A stretch of DNA of 64,000 nucleotides from Escherichia coli (lineage in GTDB: Bacteria; Pseudomonadota; Gammaproteobacteria; Enterobacterales; Enterobacteriaceae), in the NCBI RefSeq assembly GCF_013122565.1, contig NZ_CP053258.1, one strand, 5' to 3'. Numbering within the stretch: the stretch's first letter is position 1; every line of letters starts with the position of its first letter. Shown here one piece after another: positions 13,701 through 19,700 of this stretch. The position numbers are program-made.

Positions 13701-16700
13701 AAAACAGGTGTGATGTGGTTGTGACGGGTTAAAGCAGACCATGTTCGGCAAAGGAGAAAACCTGGCTGCCACCGACTATCAGATGGTCCGGCACCCGGAT
13801 ATCAACCAGGGCCAGTGCCTGAACCAGACGTTCAGTAATAAGCCGGTCAGCCTTACTGGGTGTGACTTCACCGGACGGGTGATTGTGCGCCAGTATCACG
13901 GCAGCGGCATTGTGGCACAGGGCGCGTTTAATGACCTCCCGAGGATGAACTTCCGTACGGTTGATGGTGCCGGTGAAGAGGGTTTCACCGGCAATCAGCT
14001 GATTCTGGTTGTTCAGATACAGCACCCGGAACTCTTCCCGCTCCAGTCCCGCCATGTTCAGAATCAGCCATTCCCGTGCCGCACGGGTGGAGGTGAAGGC
14101 CACTCCGGGTTCATGAAGATGGCGGTCCAGGGTTTTCAGGGCCCGCAGAATGAGGCTGCGCTCGCCGGGCGTCATCTCTCCAGGCAGAAAGGAAAGTTGC
14201 TGCATTGTCCCTGCCTCCATTCAGTCGATGATGCGCATAATGGCGCTGCATTCCGGATGCTGCAGGGCGTAATCCCGCAGCCGGTAATAATGGACCGTCA
14301 TGGCATAACACTCCGTACGACAGGCGTGATGACTGTACGTCATCAGACAGGCGGCAATGCCGGCGGCTTCCGGGCTCATTTCAGCGCGGTTACCGTTCAT
14401 GGCATTGAACAGTACCCATGTTTCGTCATCATCGTCATCCGGTTCGGGTGCCATAAATGCCCCACCGTTGTTCAGGGTGTACAGATTCCAGATACCACCG
14501 CAGTAGTCTTCACACAGACGGTCCATCCAGCCGAAGACACGGGGCTCCAGGGTCACCCATTGTGGAATGAGGCCAAAATACTGCGGCCAGAAGCTGATGC
14601 GCTGTTCATCAGGGATGAGGGTGGCAACAAGTCGGGACTGGTCATTCTCTGGTGCTGTGGTTGAAGAAAGAGCAGTTGTGTTCTGAGAAGCGATTTTCAT
14701 GAGTGAAATCCTTACAATGTGTATAAATGAGAGGAAATAAAGGCCGGGGGCTGACAACATCACGTTCATCACTGACCGTGAGACCCGGTAATATCAGGGA
14801 TGAATGATATTCGGCTGAAATTCCGGACAGCCGTACGCGTAATCGTTCCGGTCACAGACGGATGGCCAGATGCCATTGCCTGTACTCAGTCTGCACAGAC
14901 TGAGTTCTCCGGGACGGTAAAGCAGACGGGTACACCAGGCGCACAGGTCATCATCAGAAATGGAACGACACCCCGGCAGCGCCTCCGGGGCGTCGGGTGA
15001 TTCTGGTACCTGAATCACGCCTTCAGGGACAGGCTGCATCAGCGCAGGCTCTCCAGCAGCGTTTCTGCCATCACCCACAACGCCCGGTTGAGCTTAATAT
15101 CGGTGTCGATGCTGTGAATGGCACGGGTGTGGATACGTTTTCCTCTGGCACTGCGACCGGAAATCCCGCCTTTCAGCATATTCTCCTGGATGGTCTGATA
15201 AGCACTCCACAGGTCCATACCGTAATCCTCCCTGCGTCGTGGCGTCAGAATGTCGGCGGTGGTGACGGGCTGATGTTCGTCACCATAACGGTAAGTCAGT
15301 GCCGCCTGTGCCAGCGCCTGGCGTGCCGGTGGCGGCAGGACCAGCGACTGCATGGCATCACGCTTCTCCTCTATCCGGTCAAACACGCCCACCACCTCGT
15401 AAGCCCCTTCAATGACTCTGTCCACCACATTTCCCCGGTGCGGAACACGCACTTCCCCCAGAGACTGACCACAGACGCACCCGTTCTGACACACAAATCT
15501 GAAGTAACCCGGCAGCATCTGGTAGCTGGAGGTACCGTCATGGGAGTTCAGCAGGATGATTTCAGGGACATGCTGTCCGTTTATCTCCCCGTCACGGCGC
15601 AGACGCAGCATGTGTTTGGTGTATCCCCGGCGGCCCGAGTCGCGCACTCGGGTCTGGCAGGCGAAAAAGGGCTGAAAACCTTCCCGCTGCAGGCTTTCCA
15701 GCACGATGATGGTGGGGATGTACGCGTAGTTTTCGCTTCTGGAGGTGTGTTTGTCTTCCCCGAATACGCTGGGGACGACCTGCATTAATTCTTCTTGGGT
15801 CAGTGGGCGGTCCCGGCGTATCTGATTAATCCGTCCGAAGCGACTGGCTAATCGCATAAATAACTCCTTATCTGATAATGAAATAAAAGCAAAAAGGCCA
15901 TGTCCCCGGAGGAACATGGCCTGATGGAATATGTTATAGCTGATAATTAATGTTGCTGATTTTTCTCTTTAACTTTTGACCATGAGGGGCGTCGGTTACC
16001 GGAAAATTCCTTCTGCATTGACCAGTAACCAATCGGGAACTGCTTCACCATCACCCCGTTGATACCAATATCGACGGACAGATACTGGCCGTTGTTGATG
16101 CTGCCCTTGCGGATATACGCATCCGCGCTGCAGGTACCGGTATCGTACTGCTGCCATGTTGCGGTATCGCGGGCAGCAACATAAAAATCACCGAAAGCAC
16201 AGCCCGTCGCTGATTTGCGGTTCAGTATGGCAACGTAGTACTTAGTGTTGGCGATAATGGCGCAAGTGCTGCTCTGGCCGCCGCAGACCTGCCATAACGT
16301 TTTGCCACTGTCCCCCTTAAAGGTCCAGACAGTATTTGCCGGTGCGTCGTTTGCAGGTGTTACAGGCATTGCCGGTGGCTGCTGCACTGATGTAGCGTTG
16401 GGTACATCGCGGCGTAATATTTGTGCTTCTGCATCCCCGACATCGCCAAACATGTTTTCCTCTCCGCTGTTGTAATAAAAACCGGCAATAACATGCTCTG
16501 AGGGGATATACAGTATTTTAAGATAATGGTCACCGCAATTACCCCGCTCACAGACAGCCCCCAACAGCCACTTCTCGCCACCTACATCCACCGGTATTAA
16601 ACCACTGTCCGGGCCGTTCATTGCACCCTGCCTCCCTGTTAACCCGGAAAGTCCTGCTGACTTTAGCGCATCATCAAGGTCTTTCTTAAATACCGGATCC

Positions 16701-19700
16701 GCATCGTAAATGTTGCCCAGAAGAGGGCAAGAACCGTATCCGTTTTCATAATCACCTGCGTCAGGATCACAGCGCATTGCATCTGCTGCCGTTTTTGCAA
16801 CACCGGCGGCGTAAACTCCGGCGGAAATCAAACAAAGCGACGATATCAGCATTACCTGATTAAATGTACGTAAAACAAGAGACATGATTACTTTTATTCC
16901 ATCCTGTTTATATAAAAGAAACGGGCTCGGTTAAGAGCCCTGTAAAAGATTTAAAAGTCAATGGTATTAAGACCGACATTCTTTTTGATGGAGGGGTCGT
17001 AAATAACAACGGTAAGATGGTCTTTGTCGGAAGAACGGACAAACTTAGCGGTGGCCTCACCACTGCATGTTGCATGACGGTTATAATCCATCATTTTACC
17101 TTTGCTGGTAGCAAGATTGACAACGATGATATAAGGATCATAACAGGCCGAACCTCCCGGACTGCTCAGCAAGGCATATTTGCCATCATCAGAGACACCA
17201 ATGAGGCTGCATATCCCGTCTTTTACATCCTCACTTCCGCACATCAGCTCACTTCCATCTTTCACACCAATTATAGTACGGGGTAATTTAACCTCTGTGG
17301 CATTAACTGATGCACTCAACAACAAACCTGAAACCATTAATGGAAATATGAATGCTTTCATATATTCATCCTGTTTATTTTTTTGAATGAAAATGATTGT
17401 GTGGTGGAAAGGCTGCCGCCCTGTATCTAAACGCCAGACAGGGCCTGCACAGACCCTGTGGCATAATCAGAGCTCGGCCCGGCCACGTAAAACCTTGCGT
17501 GCCAGCCGCTTCTCCGTTTCCGTTGCGCTGCTGAACATACCGTTGTCGCTGATTATCCTTCTCAGCTCTGCGCTACTCCTGCTCTCCAGCCGGTCATGAA
17601 TCGCTCTTACCTCCTGGGCACTGTACAGAGCGTCTTTTGCAACTTCTTTAGCCAGTTTTCCTGCGGTATCCCAGAATCCCATCTTATTTCCCCTTTACAG
17701 GTAACCGTTATCTTTGCCCCACTCACACCCGCAGTCCCTGCACATCCAGCCATCGGACCAAGGAATAGTGTCGTAAGAGCCACAGTCCGGGCAGCGTTTG
17801 CCGGAAGTCGGGTTACCGGGGATGATACGTCTGATTTTCATATGTTATCCTTCTGTTGCGGGTTGATGTGGTTCAGGGACGAAGCCGGAAAGCACTTCGC
17901 CAATGAACCGGAAATGAGGTAATGCCTGTAAAAAATCCGGACGGGACAAGATGTCACGCACGGTGGTGTCGGGGGTAAAAATGTCGGGATGAAGTGTGAC
18001 GCCCCGGATATCAGCCAGTGGCAATGCGATGATGCGTGTCTGACGTGCCCCTGTCAGATACCAACTACCGGCATGAAGAACCAGGCGGTAGGGTGAGATA
18101 TCCGTATGGTTGCATCCGTTGCCGCGCAGTGTCACTTTCCGGCATTCCTGGACAGCATTTACCAGCCGGATAAAGACCTCACTGTCGGTGACGGGCTGTG
18201 CAGAATCCCCCTGCCAGATAAGGCAGGGGGATTCACCCGCCCCCCCCAAAAGTGAGCTGACCAGATGTCCGTCAAGTCCCGGAAACAGGGACTTAACGCC
18301 CGACTTACGGGCAAAAGTCATCACCGCCAGCTCTCGCTGACGGCTGCCGGACAGCAGACGGTACTGGCCCTGTCGATACTCCAGGTCTAGGTACATCAGT
18401 CGTTCACGAAAGTCCCGACGCAGGGTGCGAACTGACACATCAAACTCAGCTGCCAGTTTGCGTATATCCAGCGTTTCACCTGCCACCAGACGACTTATAA
18501 TTATCGACAGTCTGACGGCAAGCCGGTCATGGCGACGCTCAGCCTGAGTCATAAGGCTTCGTTCTCCGGTAAGCTAATTCAATGAAAAGATGAGGGTAAT
18601 ATTAACGAGGACGAGAGGCAGGGTATGGACATAGAAAGACGATTTTTAAAAATGCTCAGTGTCAGGAATGGCGGGGGCCACGGAGGGACGTAGCTCTTTT
18701 CTCTCTGAGTATAGGTCTGCAAACGGACAGGATGCGTCCGCACGTTAGCAAAATACCTTCTCAGTATCAGAAGAAAATCCAGTCCCAGATGGTCCGCGCA
18801 ACTGACACCACTACATCACGCACGGTACGTAGCACCACTTTCAGTGTTGTCGGCAGGAACGACGATAATTCTACCCGATCCATGACCTGCCCCACCGCTT
18901 CACCAAAGCCATGACGGGCCTGCGACCGGACCTGTTCGGTACAGAGCCTCCCATGTAACTGCGTCGCCACCGGACTGGTGGCCCTGTCCGGCAGACAACG
19001 CATCATGGTTGACACCATCTCTTCAATGCCCCAGTCGAACAACGCTGACACCACGCAGACTGGATGACGGGGAGTGAACATCGTGGTAATGACGGCCTGC
19101 TTCGCCTTCAGGTTAGTCTGCTGCTGTGGCGAGGGGGTAGCGGTACGGATATCCCATTCGTGGCAGGGTTCGATTTTGTCGGCCTGGTTCAGCACAAACA
19201 GCACCTGGTGCTGGTAAGGTTGCATCACCCCATGCCAGAACTGCTCGTCCACTGACAGCGCCCGGTCGTCGGCTTTAATGACCCACAGCACCAGGTCCAG
19301 CCCCGGCAGCATACGCCGGTACAGGGCACGGTATTCATGGTCCTGTTGCCCGTTTTCGCCCACGCCCGGCAAATCAACAATCACCAGACTGTGACGCCCG
19401 CTGCGCAGCCGGAAGCGCAGCACCTCACGAGTACAGGCGTTCACATCACTGACGGGGGAGACTTCCCCCCGGAATAGTTCATTACAGAGCGAGGATTTGC
19501 CGACCCCAGTCTTGCCCATGATGCCTATCATCGGCTCGTAGTGGGTGAGGTTCTGAATACGTTCAAAAATTAGCTGGCGAAGCGTATCGGGAAGCGCCGA
19601 CAGCGGTTGTTCAAGGGCCTTAAGGCCGTGAGGTTTAGTCATAAAGAGGTCTCTGCGTGTAAAACATAAAACCCGCACTCCGGTCAGTGAGGCGGGGATT

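What the first reader, a model, noticed from the sequence alone, without database searches (positions are those of the whole stretch)
15947..17361. Two Cys-rich secreted proteins of unknown function inside the island
Seen in sequence: both carry clear signal peptides and multiple cysteines (likely disulphide-bonded periplasmic or extracellular proteins). I could not place them in a family; a resemblance of the larger one to lysozyme-inhibitor-type proteins is weak and unverified.
Basis: inference. Interest (0 to 1): 0.45.

Follow-up and report, generated by a model that had tools for sequence, protein, structure and literature searches.

The report
Island-borne Ivy-like and phage-shared secreted proteins
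Two real, exported, disulphide-type proteins sit in the cargo slot of an E. coli genomic island: the larger has a divergent lysozyme-inhibitor (Ivy) fold joined to a conserved domain nobody has described, and the smaller belongs to an uncharacterised family shared with giant phages, so the likeliest job is envelope protection, though this is untested.

Summary
Both ORFs (312 aa, 15947-16885; 136 aa, 16951-17361; minus strand) are intact genes under purifying selection (dN/dS 0.20 and 0.12). Each has one N-terminal Sec-type signal peptide and conserved cysteines in even numbers (8 and 4 in the mature chains).

**312-aa protein.** It has two domains.
- Residues ~183-312 form a more strongly conserved, basic, 4-Cys beta domain with no Pfam, PDB or fold match. 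This domain defines the family and occurs alone in Proteus, Providencia and Morganella.

In every context examined, the gene lies downstream of a YfjR-like WYL regulator in CP4-type islands.

**136-aa protein.** It matches phrog_8968 and has full-length homologues (40-46% identity) in SPN3US-type jumbo phages, where it sits among tandem paralogues.

**Best reading (about 40% confidence).** These are WYL-regulated periplasmic envelope-protection cargo, and the Ivy-like domain binds a peptidoglycan glycosidase other than hen-type lysozyme. No function was tested.

**Verdict.** New variant of a known kind; moderate interest.

The parts
15947..16885 (-). Gene for the 312-aa exported two-domain protein (Ivy-like N-terminal domain + unnamed conserved C-terminal domain)
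   Evidence: ORF; RefSeq CDS in the 99.9%-identical genome; 68 relatives in Enterobacterales; dN/dS 0.20
16808..16885 (-). Codons 1-26: Sec-type signal peptide of the 312-aa protein, predicted cleavage VYA|AG
   Evidence: Hydrophobicity and AXA analysis, with the type conserved across the family; dN/dS 0.65, as expected for a signal peptide
16391..16807 (-). Codons 27-165: acidic (pI 4.35) Ivy-fold domain with C39/C53 and C112/C117
16535..16552 (-). Codons 112-117: Cys-bounded loop C-E-R-G-N-C, aligned with Ivy's inhibitory loop C-K-P-H-D-C
   Evidence: Alignments; family consensus C-E-x-[G/N/S]-[N/S/D]-C; shorter C-G-S-D-C / C-A-S-D-C in the Dickeya and Enterobacter relatives
16340..16390 (-). 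Codons 166-182: Pro/Ala-rich interdomain linker, variable in length and sequence
   Evidence: pLDDT <50 for residues 162-178; gapped and variable in alignment A1; dN/dS 0.94
15947..16339 (-). Codons 183-312 plus stop: family-defining basic (pI 9.4) beta-rich domain with C201/C208 and C229/C252 and a Lys/Arg-rich tail; no known family
16951..17361 (-). Gene for the 136-aa exported 4-Cys all-beta protein (signal peptide = codons 1-21, 17299-17361; cleavage VNA|TE)
   Evidence: ORF; RefSeq CDS; phrog_8968 E 3.9e-37; jumbo-phage homologues at 40-46% identity over the full length; AF2 pLDDT 77, pTM 0.71, eight strands; dN/dS 0.12
15895..15922 (-). Terminator-like hairpin (12-bp stem, then TTTTGCTTTT) 25 nt after the 312-aa stop codon
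   Evidence: The total count of such sites in the region does not exceed shuffles, so position is the only argument
16923..16940 (-). Terminator-like hairpin (6-bp GC stem, then T-rich tail) 11 nt after the 136-aa stop codon
   Evidence: sequence read
16900..16911 (-). 12-mer ATAAACAGGATG (contains the AGGA Shine-Dalgarno) upstream of the 312-aa start
   Evidence: One of only two copies in the 64-kb window, expected 0.01; conserved in related loci
17367..17378 (-). Second copy of ATAAACAGGATG, 5 nt upstream of the 136-aa start
17845..18552 (-). YfjR-like WYL-domain regulator (235 aa), first gene of the same-strand array; always upstream of the 312-family gene
   Evidence: 49% identical to K-12 YfjR; PADLOC WYL E 3.6e-18; synteny in L003, L010, L011, L012, L018, L020, L022, L023
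17695..17841 (-). 48-aa Cys4 zinc-ribbon-like ORF, 3 nt after the regulator; relatives follow the regulator in Proteus-type loci too
17467..17682 (-). 71-aa ORF with no signal peptide or other hydrophobic segment, between the zinc-ribbon ORF and the 136-aa gene
   Evidence: dN/dS 0.2-0.4

Best explanation
**Setting (shown).** Both genes are functional cargo of a CP4-type integrative island inserted next to a tRNA-Ser(GGA) gene. They lie in the variable slot between the island's GTPase gene and its DUF932 / antirestriction / RadC / CbtA-CbeA backbone. They are on the same strand as, and downstream of, a YfjR-like WYL regulator.

**Export (shown for the sequence features, inferred for the fate).** Both products carry a Sec signal peptide with a signal peptidase I-type site and no lipobox. 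Their conserved cysteine pairs probably form disulphides in the periplasm.

**The 312-aa protein (domains shown; action inferred).** It joins three parts:
- an acidic Ivy-fold domain whose two cysteines (C112, C117) bound a loop at the position of Ivy's inhibitory loop;
- a floppy Pro/Ala linker;
- a basic, highly conserved beta domain of unknown fold.

I propose that the Ivy-like domain binds the active-site cleft of a peptidoglycan glycosidase (a lysozyme-like muramidase or a lytic transglycosylase) with this loop. The loop is CERGNC and lacks the His of CKPHDC, so the target is probably not hen-egg-type c-lysozyme. A bacterial or phage enzyme acting in the periplasm is more likely. The C-terminal domain defines the family and can work without the Ivy part. 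It would then supply targeting or a second binding activity, for example to the cell wall or outer membrane.

**The 136-aa protein (family shown; action inferred).** It belongs to a small family of exported 4-Cys beta proteins that CP4-type islands share with SPN3US-type jumbo phages. It most probably acts in the periplasm or envelope during phage-host conflict, for instance in exclusion of incoming phage. Its molecular target is unknown.
For: **Genes are real and selected.**

**Export signals and conserved cysteine pairs.**

**Ivy fold.**
- Foldseek probability 1.0 and target TM 0.64-0.65.
- Pfam Ivy at E<=1e-3 in 10 of 28 relatives, best 1e-9.
- The loop is in register with CKPHDC.
- NCBI already labels some 52-58%-identical relatives 'Ivy family c-type lysozyme inhibitor'.

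**Selection by domain.** The Ivy-like domain is under strong constraint (dN/dS 0.12) and the C-terminal domain likewise (0.16).

**Precedents from papers.**
- Ivy paralogues without CKPHDC do not inhibit hen lysozyme (PMC5526577) yet inhibit the lytic transglycosylase MltB in vitro (PMC10139938, citing Clarke et al.).
- A different Ivy-like fusion protein of E. coli O121 (loop CKANTC) limits phage T7 (bioRxiv 10.1101/2024.04.20.590424).

**Conserved regulator linkage.** The WYL regulator precedes the gene in Klebsiella, Erwinia, Enterobacter, Proteus and E. coli islands. K-12 YfjR is reported to regulate only its own operon (PMC8249747).

**Phage link of the 136-aa protein.**
- phrog_8968 at E 3.9e-37.
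- 48 jumbo-phage records with full-length matches.
- Tandem signal-peptide paralogues in SPN3US.

**Host range.** Relatives occur in plant-associated Dickeya and Erwinia. This fits a bacterial or phage target better than a vertebrate one.
Against: - No activity was or could be tested here.
- The query itself is below Pfam's threshold for Ivy (E 0.059). The His that is central to lysozyme inhibition is absent.
- The Ivy-like domain is dispensable in the family: stand-alone C-terminal-domain proteins exist. The core function may therefore have nothing to do with peptidoglycan enzymes.
- The C-terminal domain model is only moderately confident (block pLDDT 50-85 over residues 181-290) and matches nothing.
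- Neither protein matches any PADLOC defence model, and the 312-aa protein has no phage homologue.
- The same island slot elsewhere carries host-directed cargo, agn43-yeeR-irmA (PMC4807369).
Confidence: 0.4

Rival explanations
1. Classical Ivy function. The 312-aa protein is an extra, horizontally acquired inhibitor of animal c-type lysozyme. It helps the carrier strain survive in the gut or on mucosa, and the 136-aa protein is unrelated cargo.
For: Ivy fold and aligned Cys-Cys loop. Acidic domain, which would suit basic lysozymes (own knowledge). NCBI's automated name on relatives. The closest genomes come from baboon, human and sheep isolates. Related islands carry host-directed cargo such as IrmA and Ag43 (PMC4807369).
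Against: The CKPHDC loop, reported as essential and strictly conserved among lysozyme-inhibiting Ivy proteins (PMC4262234), is replaced by CERGNC. The paralogue IvyP2, which lacks that motif, does not inhibit hen lysozyme in vitro (PMC5526577). Relatives occur in plant pathogens. E. coli already has a chromosomal ivy gene (K-12 example).
Confidence: 0.15
2. The Ivy-like domain is only a scaffold or chaperone-like binding module. The real activity lies in the conserved C-terminal domain, for example a carbohydrate- or envelope-binding or adhesive function with no enzyme inhibition involved.
For: The C-terminal domain is the most conserved part, with 38 invariant columns rich in aromatic and polar residues. 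It occurs alone, or with other partner domains. K-12 Ivy is itself annotated 'periplasmic chaperone'.
Against: The Ivy-like domain is under equally strong purifying selection (dN/dS 0.12 vs 0.16) and keeps its Cys-bounded loop with a conserved Glu. No lectin or adhesin fold was found for the C-terminal domain.
Confidence: 0.2
3. Both proteins are released from the cell and act on the animal host, as immune modulators or colonisation factors like IrmA, which occupies the same island slot elsewhere.
For: The same GTPase-to-DUF932 slot carries agn43-yeeR-irmA in PAI-CFT073-serX (PMC4807369). In Proteus, the stand-alone C-terminal-domain gene sits next to an IrmA-family gene (PF18673).
Against: The 136-aa protein has no Pfam IrmA match. 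IrmA's reported FNIII-like fold (PMC4807369) differs from the beta-propeller-blade matches found. Its relatives are in virulent jumbo phages of Salmonella, Erwinia and Proteus, which points to a function inside the bacterial envelope. No secretion system beyond Sec is encoded nearby.
Confidence: 0.1
4. The ORFs are decaying or meaningless passengers of a degraded island.
For: The island is riddled with IS fragments and pseudogenes. In the closest genome, the neighbouring regulator is frameshifted.
Against: Intact in all variants examined. dN/dS is 0.11-0.20, with domain-specific constraint. Conserved across several genera and into phages.
Confidence: 0.03

Closest known systems
Ivy family (Pfam PF08816): E. 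coli Ivy/YkfE, P. aeruginosa Ivyp1 and Ivyp2
   Different: The loop is CERGNC, so the His of CKPHDC is absent. The domain is only half of a 286-residue mature protein, fused through a linker to an unrelated conserved domain. The gene is on a mobile island under a WYL regulator, not a core chromosomal gene. The query is below Pfam's threshold (E 0.059).
Hypo_04657 of E. coli O121 (PHAGEPACK preprint, bioRxiv 10.1101/2024.04.20.590424)
   Same: An accessory E. coli protein with an N-terminal Ivy-like domain, a non-canonical loop (CKANTC) and an extra C-terminal part. Its knock-down improved T7 growth, giving a precedent for Ivy-like fusions in phage-host conflict.
   Different: Its C-terminal part is described as alpha-helical and possibly membrane-spanning. 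Here it is a beta-rich soluble domain.
phrog_8968 / SPN3US_0182 and its paralogues SPN3US_0181 and _0183 (Seoulvirus jumbo phages)
   Same: The 136-aa protein matches over its full length (E 3.9e-37; 41% identity to SPN3US_0182). It shares the signal peptide, the four cysteines and a nearly identical C-terminal strand...YDP(S/T)IKKNVG(L/I)N..(I/L)DF.
   Different: The phages carry three tandem paralogues; the island has a single copy beside the Ivy-like gene. No member has a known function.
T4 Spackle (gp61.3), a phage periplasmic inhibitor of tail lysozyme used for superinfection exclusion (own knowledge)
   Same: A functional analogy only: a small exported protein, encoded by a phage, that acts in the periplasm on a peptidoglycan-cleaving enzyme.
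Cargo of the same slot in related islands: K-12 CP4-57 yfjR-ypjK-yfjS-yfjT and UPEC agn43-yeeR-irmA
   Same: Same island backbone. The same position holds small exported, lipoprotein or surface proteins, in K-12 directly downstream of YfjR (PMC4807369; PMC8249747).
   Different: YfjS, YfjT and IrmA are not detectably homologous to either protein.

Membership tests
Ivy (PF08816) | Ivy alpha/beta fold | tested here: met
Ivy (PF08816) | Significant match to the family's sequence profile | tested here: inconclusive
   Query E=0.059, 14 bits. Of 28 relatives, 10 reach E<=1e-3 (best 1e-9) and 24 reach E<=0.1. Profile vs PDB Ivy E~0.09. hhalign vs K-12 Ivy prob 44%, E 2.4e-4.
Ivy (PF08816) | Short loop bounded by two cysteines at the inhibitory position | tested here: met
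   C112 and C117 align with the two Cys of CKPHDC. C112 is invariant and C117 is >=90% conserved. The disulphide itself is inferred.
Ivy (PF08816) | CKPHDC motif with the active-site-plugging His | tested here: not met
   The loop is CERGNC; family consensus C-E-x-[G/N/S]-[N/S/D]-C. Two relatives have a one-residue-shorter loop.
Ivy (PF08816) | Inhibition of c-type lysozyme | not testable with these tools
   Needs a turbidimetric or ITC assay with purified protein.
Ivy (PF08816) | Periplasmic export signal | tested here: met
   N-terminal hydrophobic core plus a VYA|AG site, with the type conserved across the family.
MliC/PliC lysozyme inhibitors (PF09864) | Match to the family profile or the 8-stranded barrel fold (considered for the 136-aa protein because of a remembered SxSGAxY / TKG-like motif) | tested here: not met
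IrmA (PF18673) | Match to the IrmA profile / FNIII-like fold | tested here: not met
phrog_8968 (phage protein family of unknown function) | Full-length match to the family profile | tested here: met
   E 3.9e-37, residues 1-134 on profile 1-134 of 135. tblastn gave 48 phage records, 45 covering >=80% of the query.
YfjS / YfjT (K-12 CP4-57 cargo at the same position) | Sequence homology | tested here: not met
   BLASTP E>=0.24. hhalign probabilities 0.2-1.3%.
Known anti-phage defence systems (PADLOC-DB 2.0) | Match of either protein to a defence-system model | tested here: not met
   No families for either protein at E<=0.1. Only the neighbouring regulator matches WYL models.

The most novel reading that the evidence does not exclude
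The array from the WYL regulator to the Ivy-like gene is a new kind of envelope-level anti-phage module. The regulator would derepress it on infection or DNA damage. The Ivy-like domain would then block a phage peptidoglycan-cleaving enzyme (tail-tip lysozyme or endolysin) in the periplasm, held in place by the conserved C-terminal domain. The 136-aa protein would be a superinfection-exclusion factor captured from, or traded with, jumbo phages, which keep three copies for their own use.
Probability: 0.2. Interest if true: 0.7.

Novelty: new variant of a known kind. Interest (0 to 1): 0.4.

Why it matters
- **Ivy paralogues.** Ivy-type proteins are usually discussed as defences against animal lysozyme. 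What the paralogues lacking the CKPHDC loop do is still open. Here an Ivy-like domain has a conserved but different loop, sits on a mobile island, is tied to a WYL regulator and is fused to an undescribed domain. That gives a concrete system for asking what non-canonical Ivy domains bind.
- **The 136-aa family.** It links CP4-type islands to SPN3US-type jumbo phages, a link not mentioned in any paper found by the searches here. It offers a first handle on a cluster of exported jumbo-phage proteins of unknown role.
- **Annotation.** Some RefSeq records start the larger gene at Met37 and so lose the signal peptide. The C-terminal domain deserves a family of its own.
- **Limits.** None of this is a major surprise, and the function remains untested.

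Tried and rejected
1. **MliC/PliC-like motif in the 136-aa protein.** I remembered a resemblance ('SSPGGSACY', 'TSKGK'). 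There is no Pfam match at E<=10 and no matching fold, so I rejected it.
2. **IrmA-like fold for the 136-aa protein.** This was suggested by the IrmA gene next to the Proteus relative. It found no support.
3. **Homology to K-12 YfjS or YfjT at the same island position.** A tempting 'R-x-S-x-x-G-C-x-x-G' stretch shared by YfjS and the C-terminal domain scored BLASTP E 0.24 and hhalign probability 1.3%. Rejected as chance.
4. **C-terminal domain as a second, degenerate Ivy repeat.** hhalign of the N-terminal-domain profile against the C-terminal-domain profile gave probability 0.06%. Rejected.
5. **DUF7908 hits in 4 relatives.** In P0058 the match spans the end of the Ivy domain, the low-complexity linker and the start of the C-terminal domain. 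I treat it as compositional.
6. **PF27224, precomputed for P0100.** Pfam-A here gave nothing significant for that protein.
7. **Large repeat proteins in the exhaustive search (P0129, P0131, P0132, P0136).** These are cadherin-like repeat proteins that match a short 'SLSSNPGG'-type stretch. I judged them spurious.
8. **NCBIfam and PADLOC.** Neither gave a hit for either protein.
10. **Literature.** Searches by accession number and for SPN3US gp181-183 or signal peptides found nothing.
11. **Promoter scan.** It found no convincing sigma-70 site for either gene, and site counts did not exceed shuffles.

Full report
**What is there.** The window is E. coli chromosome. The 1.7 kb around the finding is 99.9% identical to strain PapRG-06-5. 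In that strain's RefSeq annotation the two ORFs are 'hypothetical protein' WP_000060628.1 (312 aa) and WP_000642912.1 (136 aa). In the window they are 15947..16885 and 16951..17361, both on the minus strand.

They belong to a same-strand array:
- GTPase (18767..19678)
- YfjR-like regulator (17845..18552)
- 48-aa zinc-ribbon-like ORF (17695..17841)
- 71-aa ORF (17467..17682)
- 136-aa gene
- 312-aa gene
- DUF932 (15039..15857 by the RefSeq start)
- antirestriction protein, RadC/JAB, DUF987, and the YeeU/CbtA toxin-antitoxin pair

This is the backbone of CP4-type islands. The island begins beside tRNA-Ser(GGA) at 10956..11043. In the near-identical genome it ends at an IS3-disrupted integrase next to ycdU.

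**Are the genes real?** Yes.
- Between E. coli variants that differ by 11-13% at the DNA level, dN/dS is 0.20 for the 312-aa gene and 0.11-0.12 for the 136-aa gene.
- Within the larger gene the two folded domains are constrained (0.12 and 0.16). The signal peptide (0.65) and linker (0.94) are not, which is what a real exported two-domain protein should show.
- Exactly these two protein sequences are already in public databases on 134 and 214 contigs, always unnamed.
- The pair occurs together in 72-74 of 5,426 complete E. coli genomes.

**Export and cysteines.**
- Each protein has a single hydrophobic segment, at the N-terminus. It is followed by a signal-peptidase-I-type site (VYA|AG after residue 26; VNA|TE after residue 21), and there is no lipobox.
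- Diverged relatives keep this kind of N-terminus with different sequences.
- The mature 312-aa chain has eight cysteines, all invariant or >=90% conserved in 28 relatives.
- The mature 136-aa chain has four. Three are invariant and one is >=90% conserved down to 27% identity.
- I had no signal-peptide predictor and no access to model coordinates, so cleavage sites and disulphide pairing are inferences.

**The 312-aa protein has two domains.**

*N-terminal domain (residues ~27-165).*
- Pfam gives only a weak Ivy hit for the query (E 0.059, residues 97-140). When 28 relatives are scanned one by one, 10 match Ivy at E<=1e-3 (best 1e-9) and 24 at E<=0.1.
- A profile of the family finds only Ivy chains among PDB sequences (E~0.09). 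C112..C117 lies exactly on Ivy's C-K-P-H-D-C.
- hhalign of the N-terminal-domain profile against K-12 Ivy gives E 2.4e-4 in the same register.
- The defining motif is missing. The loop is C-E-R-G-N-C, with family consensus C-E-x-[G/N/S]-[N/S/D]-C. The Dickeya and Enterobacter relatives have an even shorter C-G-S-D-C / C-A-S-D-C.
- According to the literature held here, CKPHDC is essential for lysozyme inhibition, and a few paralogues carry CExxDxC instead (PMC4262234). The paralogue IvyP2 does not inhibit hen lysozyme in vitro (PMC5526577). Both P. aeruginosa Ivy proteins were nevertheless reported to inhibit the lytic transglycosylase MltB (PMC10139938, citing Clarke et al.).

*C-terminal domain (residues ~183-312).*
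- It is the better-conserved half, with 38 invariant positions including CAFGD, GQY and PIGYW.
- It is basic (pI 9.4, against 4.35 for the Ivy-like domain) and ends in a Lys/Arg-rich tail.
- It has no Pfam family and no PDB sequence match. It is unrelated to the N-terminal domain.
- A profile search shows it also exists alone behind its own signal peptide in Proteus, Providencia and Morganella (160-190 aa). It also occurs ahead of a different C-terminal extension in P0099 and P0100.
- This domain therefore defines the family, and the Ivy-like domain is an add-on found in Escherichia, Salmonella, Citrobacter, Klebsiella, Serratia, Yersinia, Erwinia, Dickeya and Enterobacter.

**Genomic association.** Every locus with enough flanking DNA shows the same layout. 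These are Proteus mirabilis, Klebsiella aerogenes, Erwinia persicina, Enterobacter cloacae and five IMG/VR 'viral' contigs that are in fact the same kind of island. In each, the gene lies downstream of, and on the same strand as, a YfjR-like regulator, inside the GTPase/DUF932/antirestriction backbone.
- The regulator is 49% identical to K-12 YfjR and matches WYL-domain models (E 3.6e-18).
- YfjR is reported to regulate only its own operon (PMC8249747), although ChIP-exo saw no binding (PMC8464067).
- In K-12 CP4-57 the genes after yfjR are ypjK, yfjS (annotated 'inner membrane lipoprotein') and yfjT (their products read as a hydrophobic peptide, a lipoprotein and a signal-peptide protein). 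In UPEC islands of this type the same slot holds agn43-yeeR-irmA (PMC4807369). In Proteus an IrmA-family gene follows the stand-alone C-terminal-domain gene.
- The slot therefore collects exported or surface cargo. YfjS, YfjT and IrmA are not homologous to the proteins studied here.

**The 136-aa protein.**
- Pfam, NCBIfam and PADLOC find nothing.
- The word-indexed search finds only close relatives (>=71% identity) in Escherichia, Salmonella and Serratia.
- An exhaustive HMM search of 1.84 billion representatives finds just 18 proteins. Seven of them are small signal-peptide proteins at 27-35% identity with the same four cysteines.
- PHROGs places it in phrog_8968 (E 3.9e-37, full length).
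- tblastn finds 48 phage records, all ~200-250 kb jumbo phages of the SPN3US/phiEaH2/Asesino type that infect Salmonella, Erwinia, E. coli and Proteus. Identity is 40-46% over the whole length.
- In SPN3US the homologue (SPN3US_0182) is flanked by two further signal-peptide proteins that are paralogues (hhalign probability 95% and 92%).
- A more distant relative (P0122, 37%) sits in the same GTPase-to-DUF932 slot of yet another island.
- No paper found here mentions these phage genes.

**Local signals.**
- Terminator-like hairpins lie just after each of the two stop codons (16940-16923 and 15922-15895). The overall count of such sites does not exceed shuffled controls.
- The 12-mer ATAAACAGGATG, which includes the Shine-Dalgarno sequence, occurs exactly twice in the 64-kb window: 5 nt and 14 nt upstream of the two start codons. 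The chance expectation is 0.01. It is kept in related E. coli-type loci.
- No convincing promoter was found.

**How it most likely works.**

*Shown:*
- two selected genes with export signals and conserved cysteine pairs;
- an Ivy fold with a non-canonical loop;
- a novel conserved domain;
- constant linkage to a WYL regulator;
- a family shared with jumbo phages.

*Inferred:* both proteins work in the periplasm. The Ivy-like domain uses its Cys-bounded loop to bind a peptidoglycan glycosidase. Given the missing His, the presence of relatives in plant pathogens and the phage link of its neighbour, that enzyme is more likely bacterial or phage than hen-type animal lysozyme. The C-terminal domain supplies anchoring or a second binding function. 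The 136-aa protein acts on the envelope in phage-host conflict.

A preprint reports that another Ivy-like fusion protein of E. coli O121 limits T7 (bioRxiv 10.1101/2024.04.20.590424). That is a precedent, not evidence for this protein.

I give the overall reading about 0.4. The identity statements alone (exported, Ivy fold, phage-shared family) I would put near 0.9. The rivals are:
- a classical animal-lysozyme inhibitor (0.15);
- an Ivy scaffold whose real activity lies in the C-terminal domain (0.2);
- host-directed secreted factors like IrmA (0.1);
- junk (0.03).

**Comparison with what is known, and novelty.** The larger protein works most like an Ivy paralogue. It fails the motif test for canonical Ivy, and the query itself is sub-threshold for Pfam. 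I therefore file it as an Ivy-fold variant fused to an undescribed domain, not as an Ivy orthologue. Some relatives already carry NCBI's automated 'Ivy family' name, so the Ivy link is not wholly new. The smaller protein is a new member of an uncharacterised phage/island family. Overall this is a new variant of a known kind, of moderate interest (0.4). It offers useful leads (non-canonical Ivy targets, a new conserved periplasmic domain, an island/jumbo-phage shared family), but nothing yet that would strongly surprise a specialist.

Noticed in passing
window 16900-16911 (-) and 17367-17378 (-): The 12-mer ATAAACAGGATG occurs only twice in the 64-kb window, each time just upstream of one of the two start codons (expected 0.01). 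It is conserved in related E. coli-type loci L001, L018, L019 and L025. It could be a shared translation or regulatory element, or a trace of common cassette ends.
   Followed up: partly
window 17695-17841 (-); L003 7708-7806; L020 3126-3242; L022 3160-3237: A 48-aa Cys4 zinc-ribbon-like ORF starts 3 nt after the WYL regulator. It has recognisable relatives at the same position in Proteus-type islands, so regulator plus mini zinc-ribbon may be a conserved pair.
   Followed up: partly
L013 (SPN3US) 3487-4808; also L008 7001-7821: SPN3US-type jumbo phages carry three adjacent paralogues of the 136-aa family (SPN3US_0181, _0182, _0183), each with a signal peptide and four cysteines. A fourth signal-peptide protein (SPN3US_0180) lies next door and is not detectably related.
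   Followed up: partly
L025 1647-2585 (E. coli O15:H12 strain 2273-PO3); also 276-aa entries P0035-P0038, P0140, P0141: RefSeq and GenBank call a 276-aa version starting at Met37, which removes the signal peptide. In L025 the full 312-codon ORF is nevertheless intact, so this is a likely start-site mis-annotation.
   Followed up: partly
window 15858-15917 (-) and hairpin 15895-15922: The longest DUF932 ORF (start 15917) overlaps the terminator-like hairpin that follows the 312-aa gene. The RefSeq start (equivalent to 15857) avoids it and is more plausible.
   Followed up: partly
window 17845-18552 (-) vs L001 18046-18752: The WYL regulator is intact in the window but annotated as frameshifted in the otherwise 99.9%-identical strain PapRG-06-5, so the window is not from that exact genome. 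The tRNA-Ser position is also shifted by about 300 bp between the two.
   Followed up: no
L011 6001-7146 (Erwinia persicina, P0063); L006 6192-6731 and 7001-7414: The Erwinia member of the 312-aa family carries an N-terminal GYF_2 domain ahead of the hydrophobic segment. A separate GYF_2 protein sits directly upstream of a distant 136-family member (P0122) in another island. This is a recurring but unexplained link.
   Followed up: no
window 10956-11043 (tRNA-Ser) through ~44 kb; L017 8054-10519: The toxin-antitoxin/DUF4942 end of the island abuts the tRNA-Ser gene. The integrase, split by an IS3 element, is at the far end next to ycdU. This is the reverse of the order seen in K-12 CP4-57, where the toxin-antitoxin end is at the far end of the annotated prophage. 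The island also holds a fimbrial operon, IS66, ISL3 and IS256 fragments and a truncated ydeO-like gene.
   Followed up: no
window 43010-43133 (-) and 5264-5355 (+): Rfam matches above the gathering score: STnc490 Hfq-binding sRNA (140.8 bits), and ES056 sRNA (119.7 bits) in the csg region.
   Followed up: no
window ~45-64 kb (L017 10875-31204): Beyond ycdU lies a second accessory block. It holds a fatty-acid/polyketide-like cluster (ketoacyl synthases, ACP, FabZ-like, SDR, AcpS, a LolA-like protein, ABC transporter) followed by a two-partner secretion pair (ShlB/FhaC-type transporter and a filamentous-haemagglutinin-like protein).
   Followed up: no
window 16219-16255 region of the C-terminal domain vs K-12 YfjS residues 71-107: There is a short look-alike stretch (R-x-S-x-x-G-C-x-x-G ... 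C) between the C-terminal domain and the CP4-57 lipoprotein YfjS. It is statistically insignificant (BLASTP E 0.24; hhalign probability 1.3%), so it is recorded only as a lead.
   Followed up: yes
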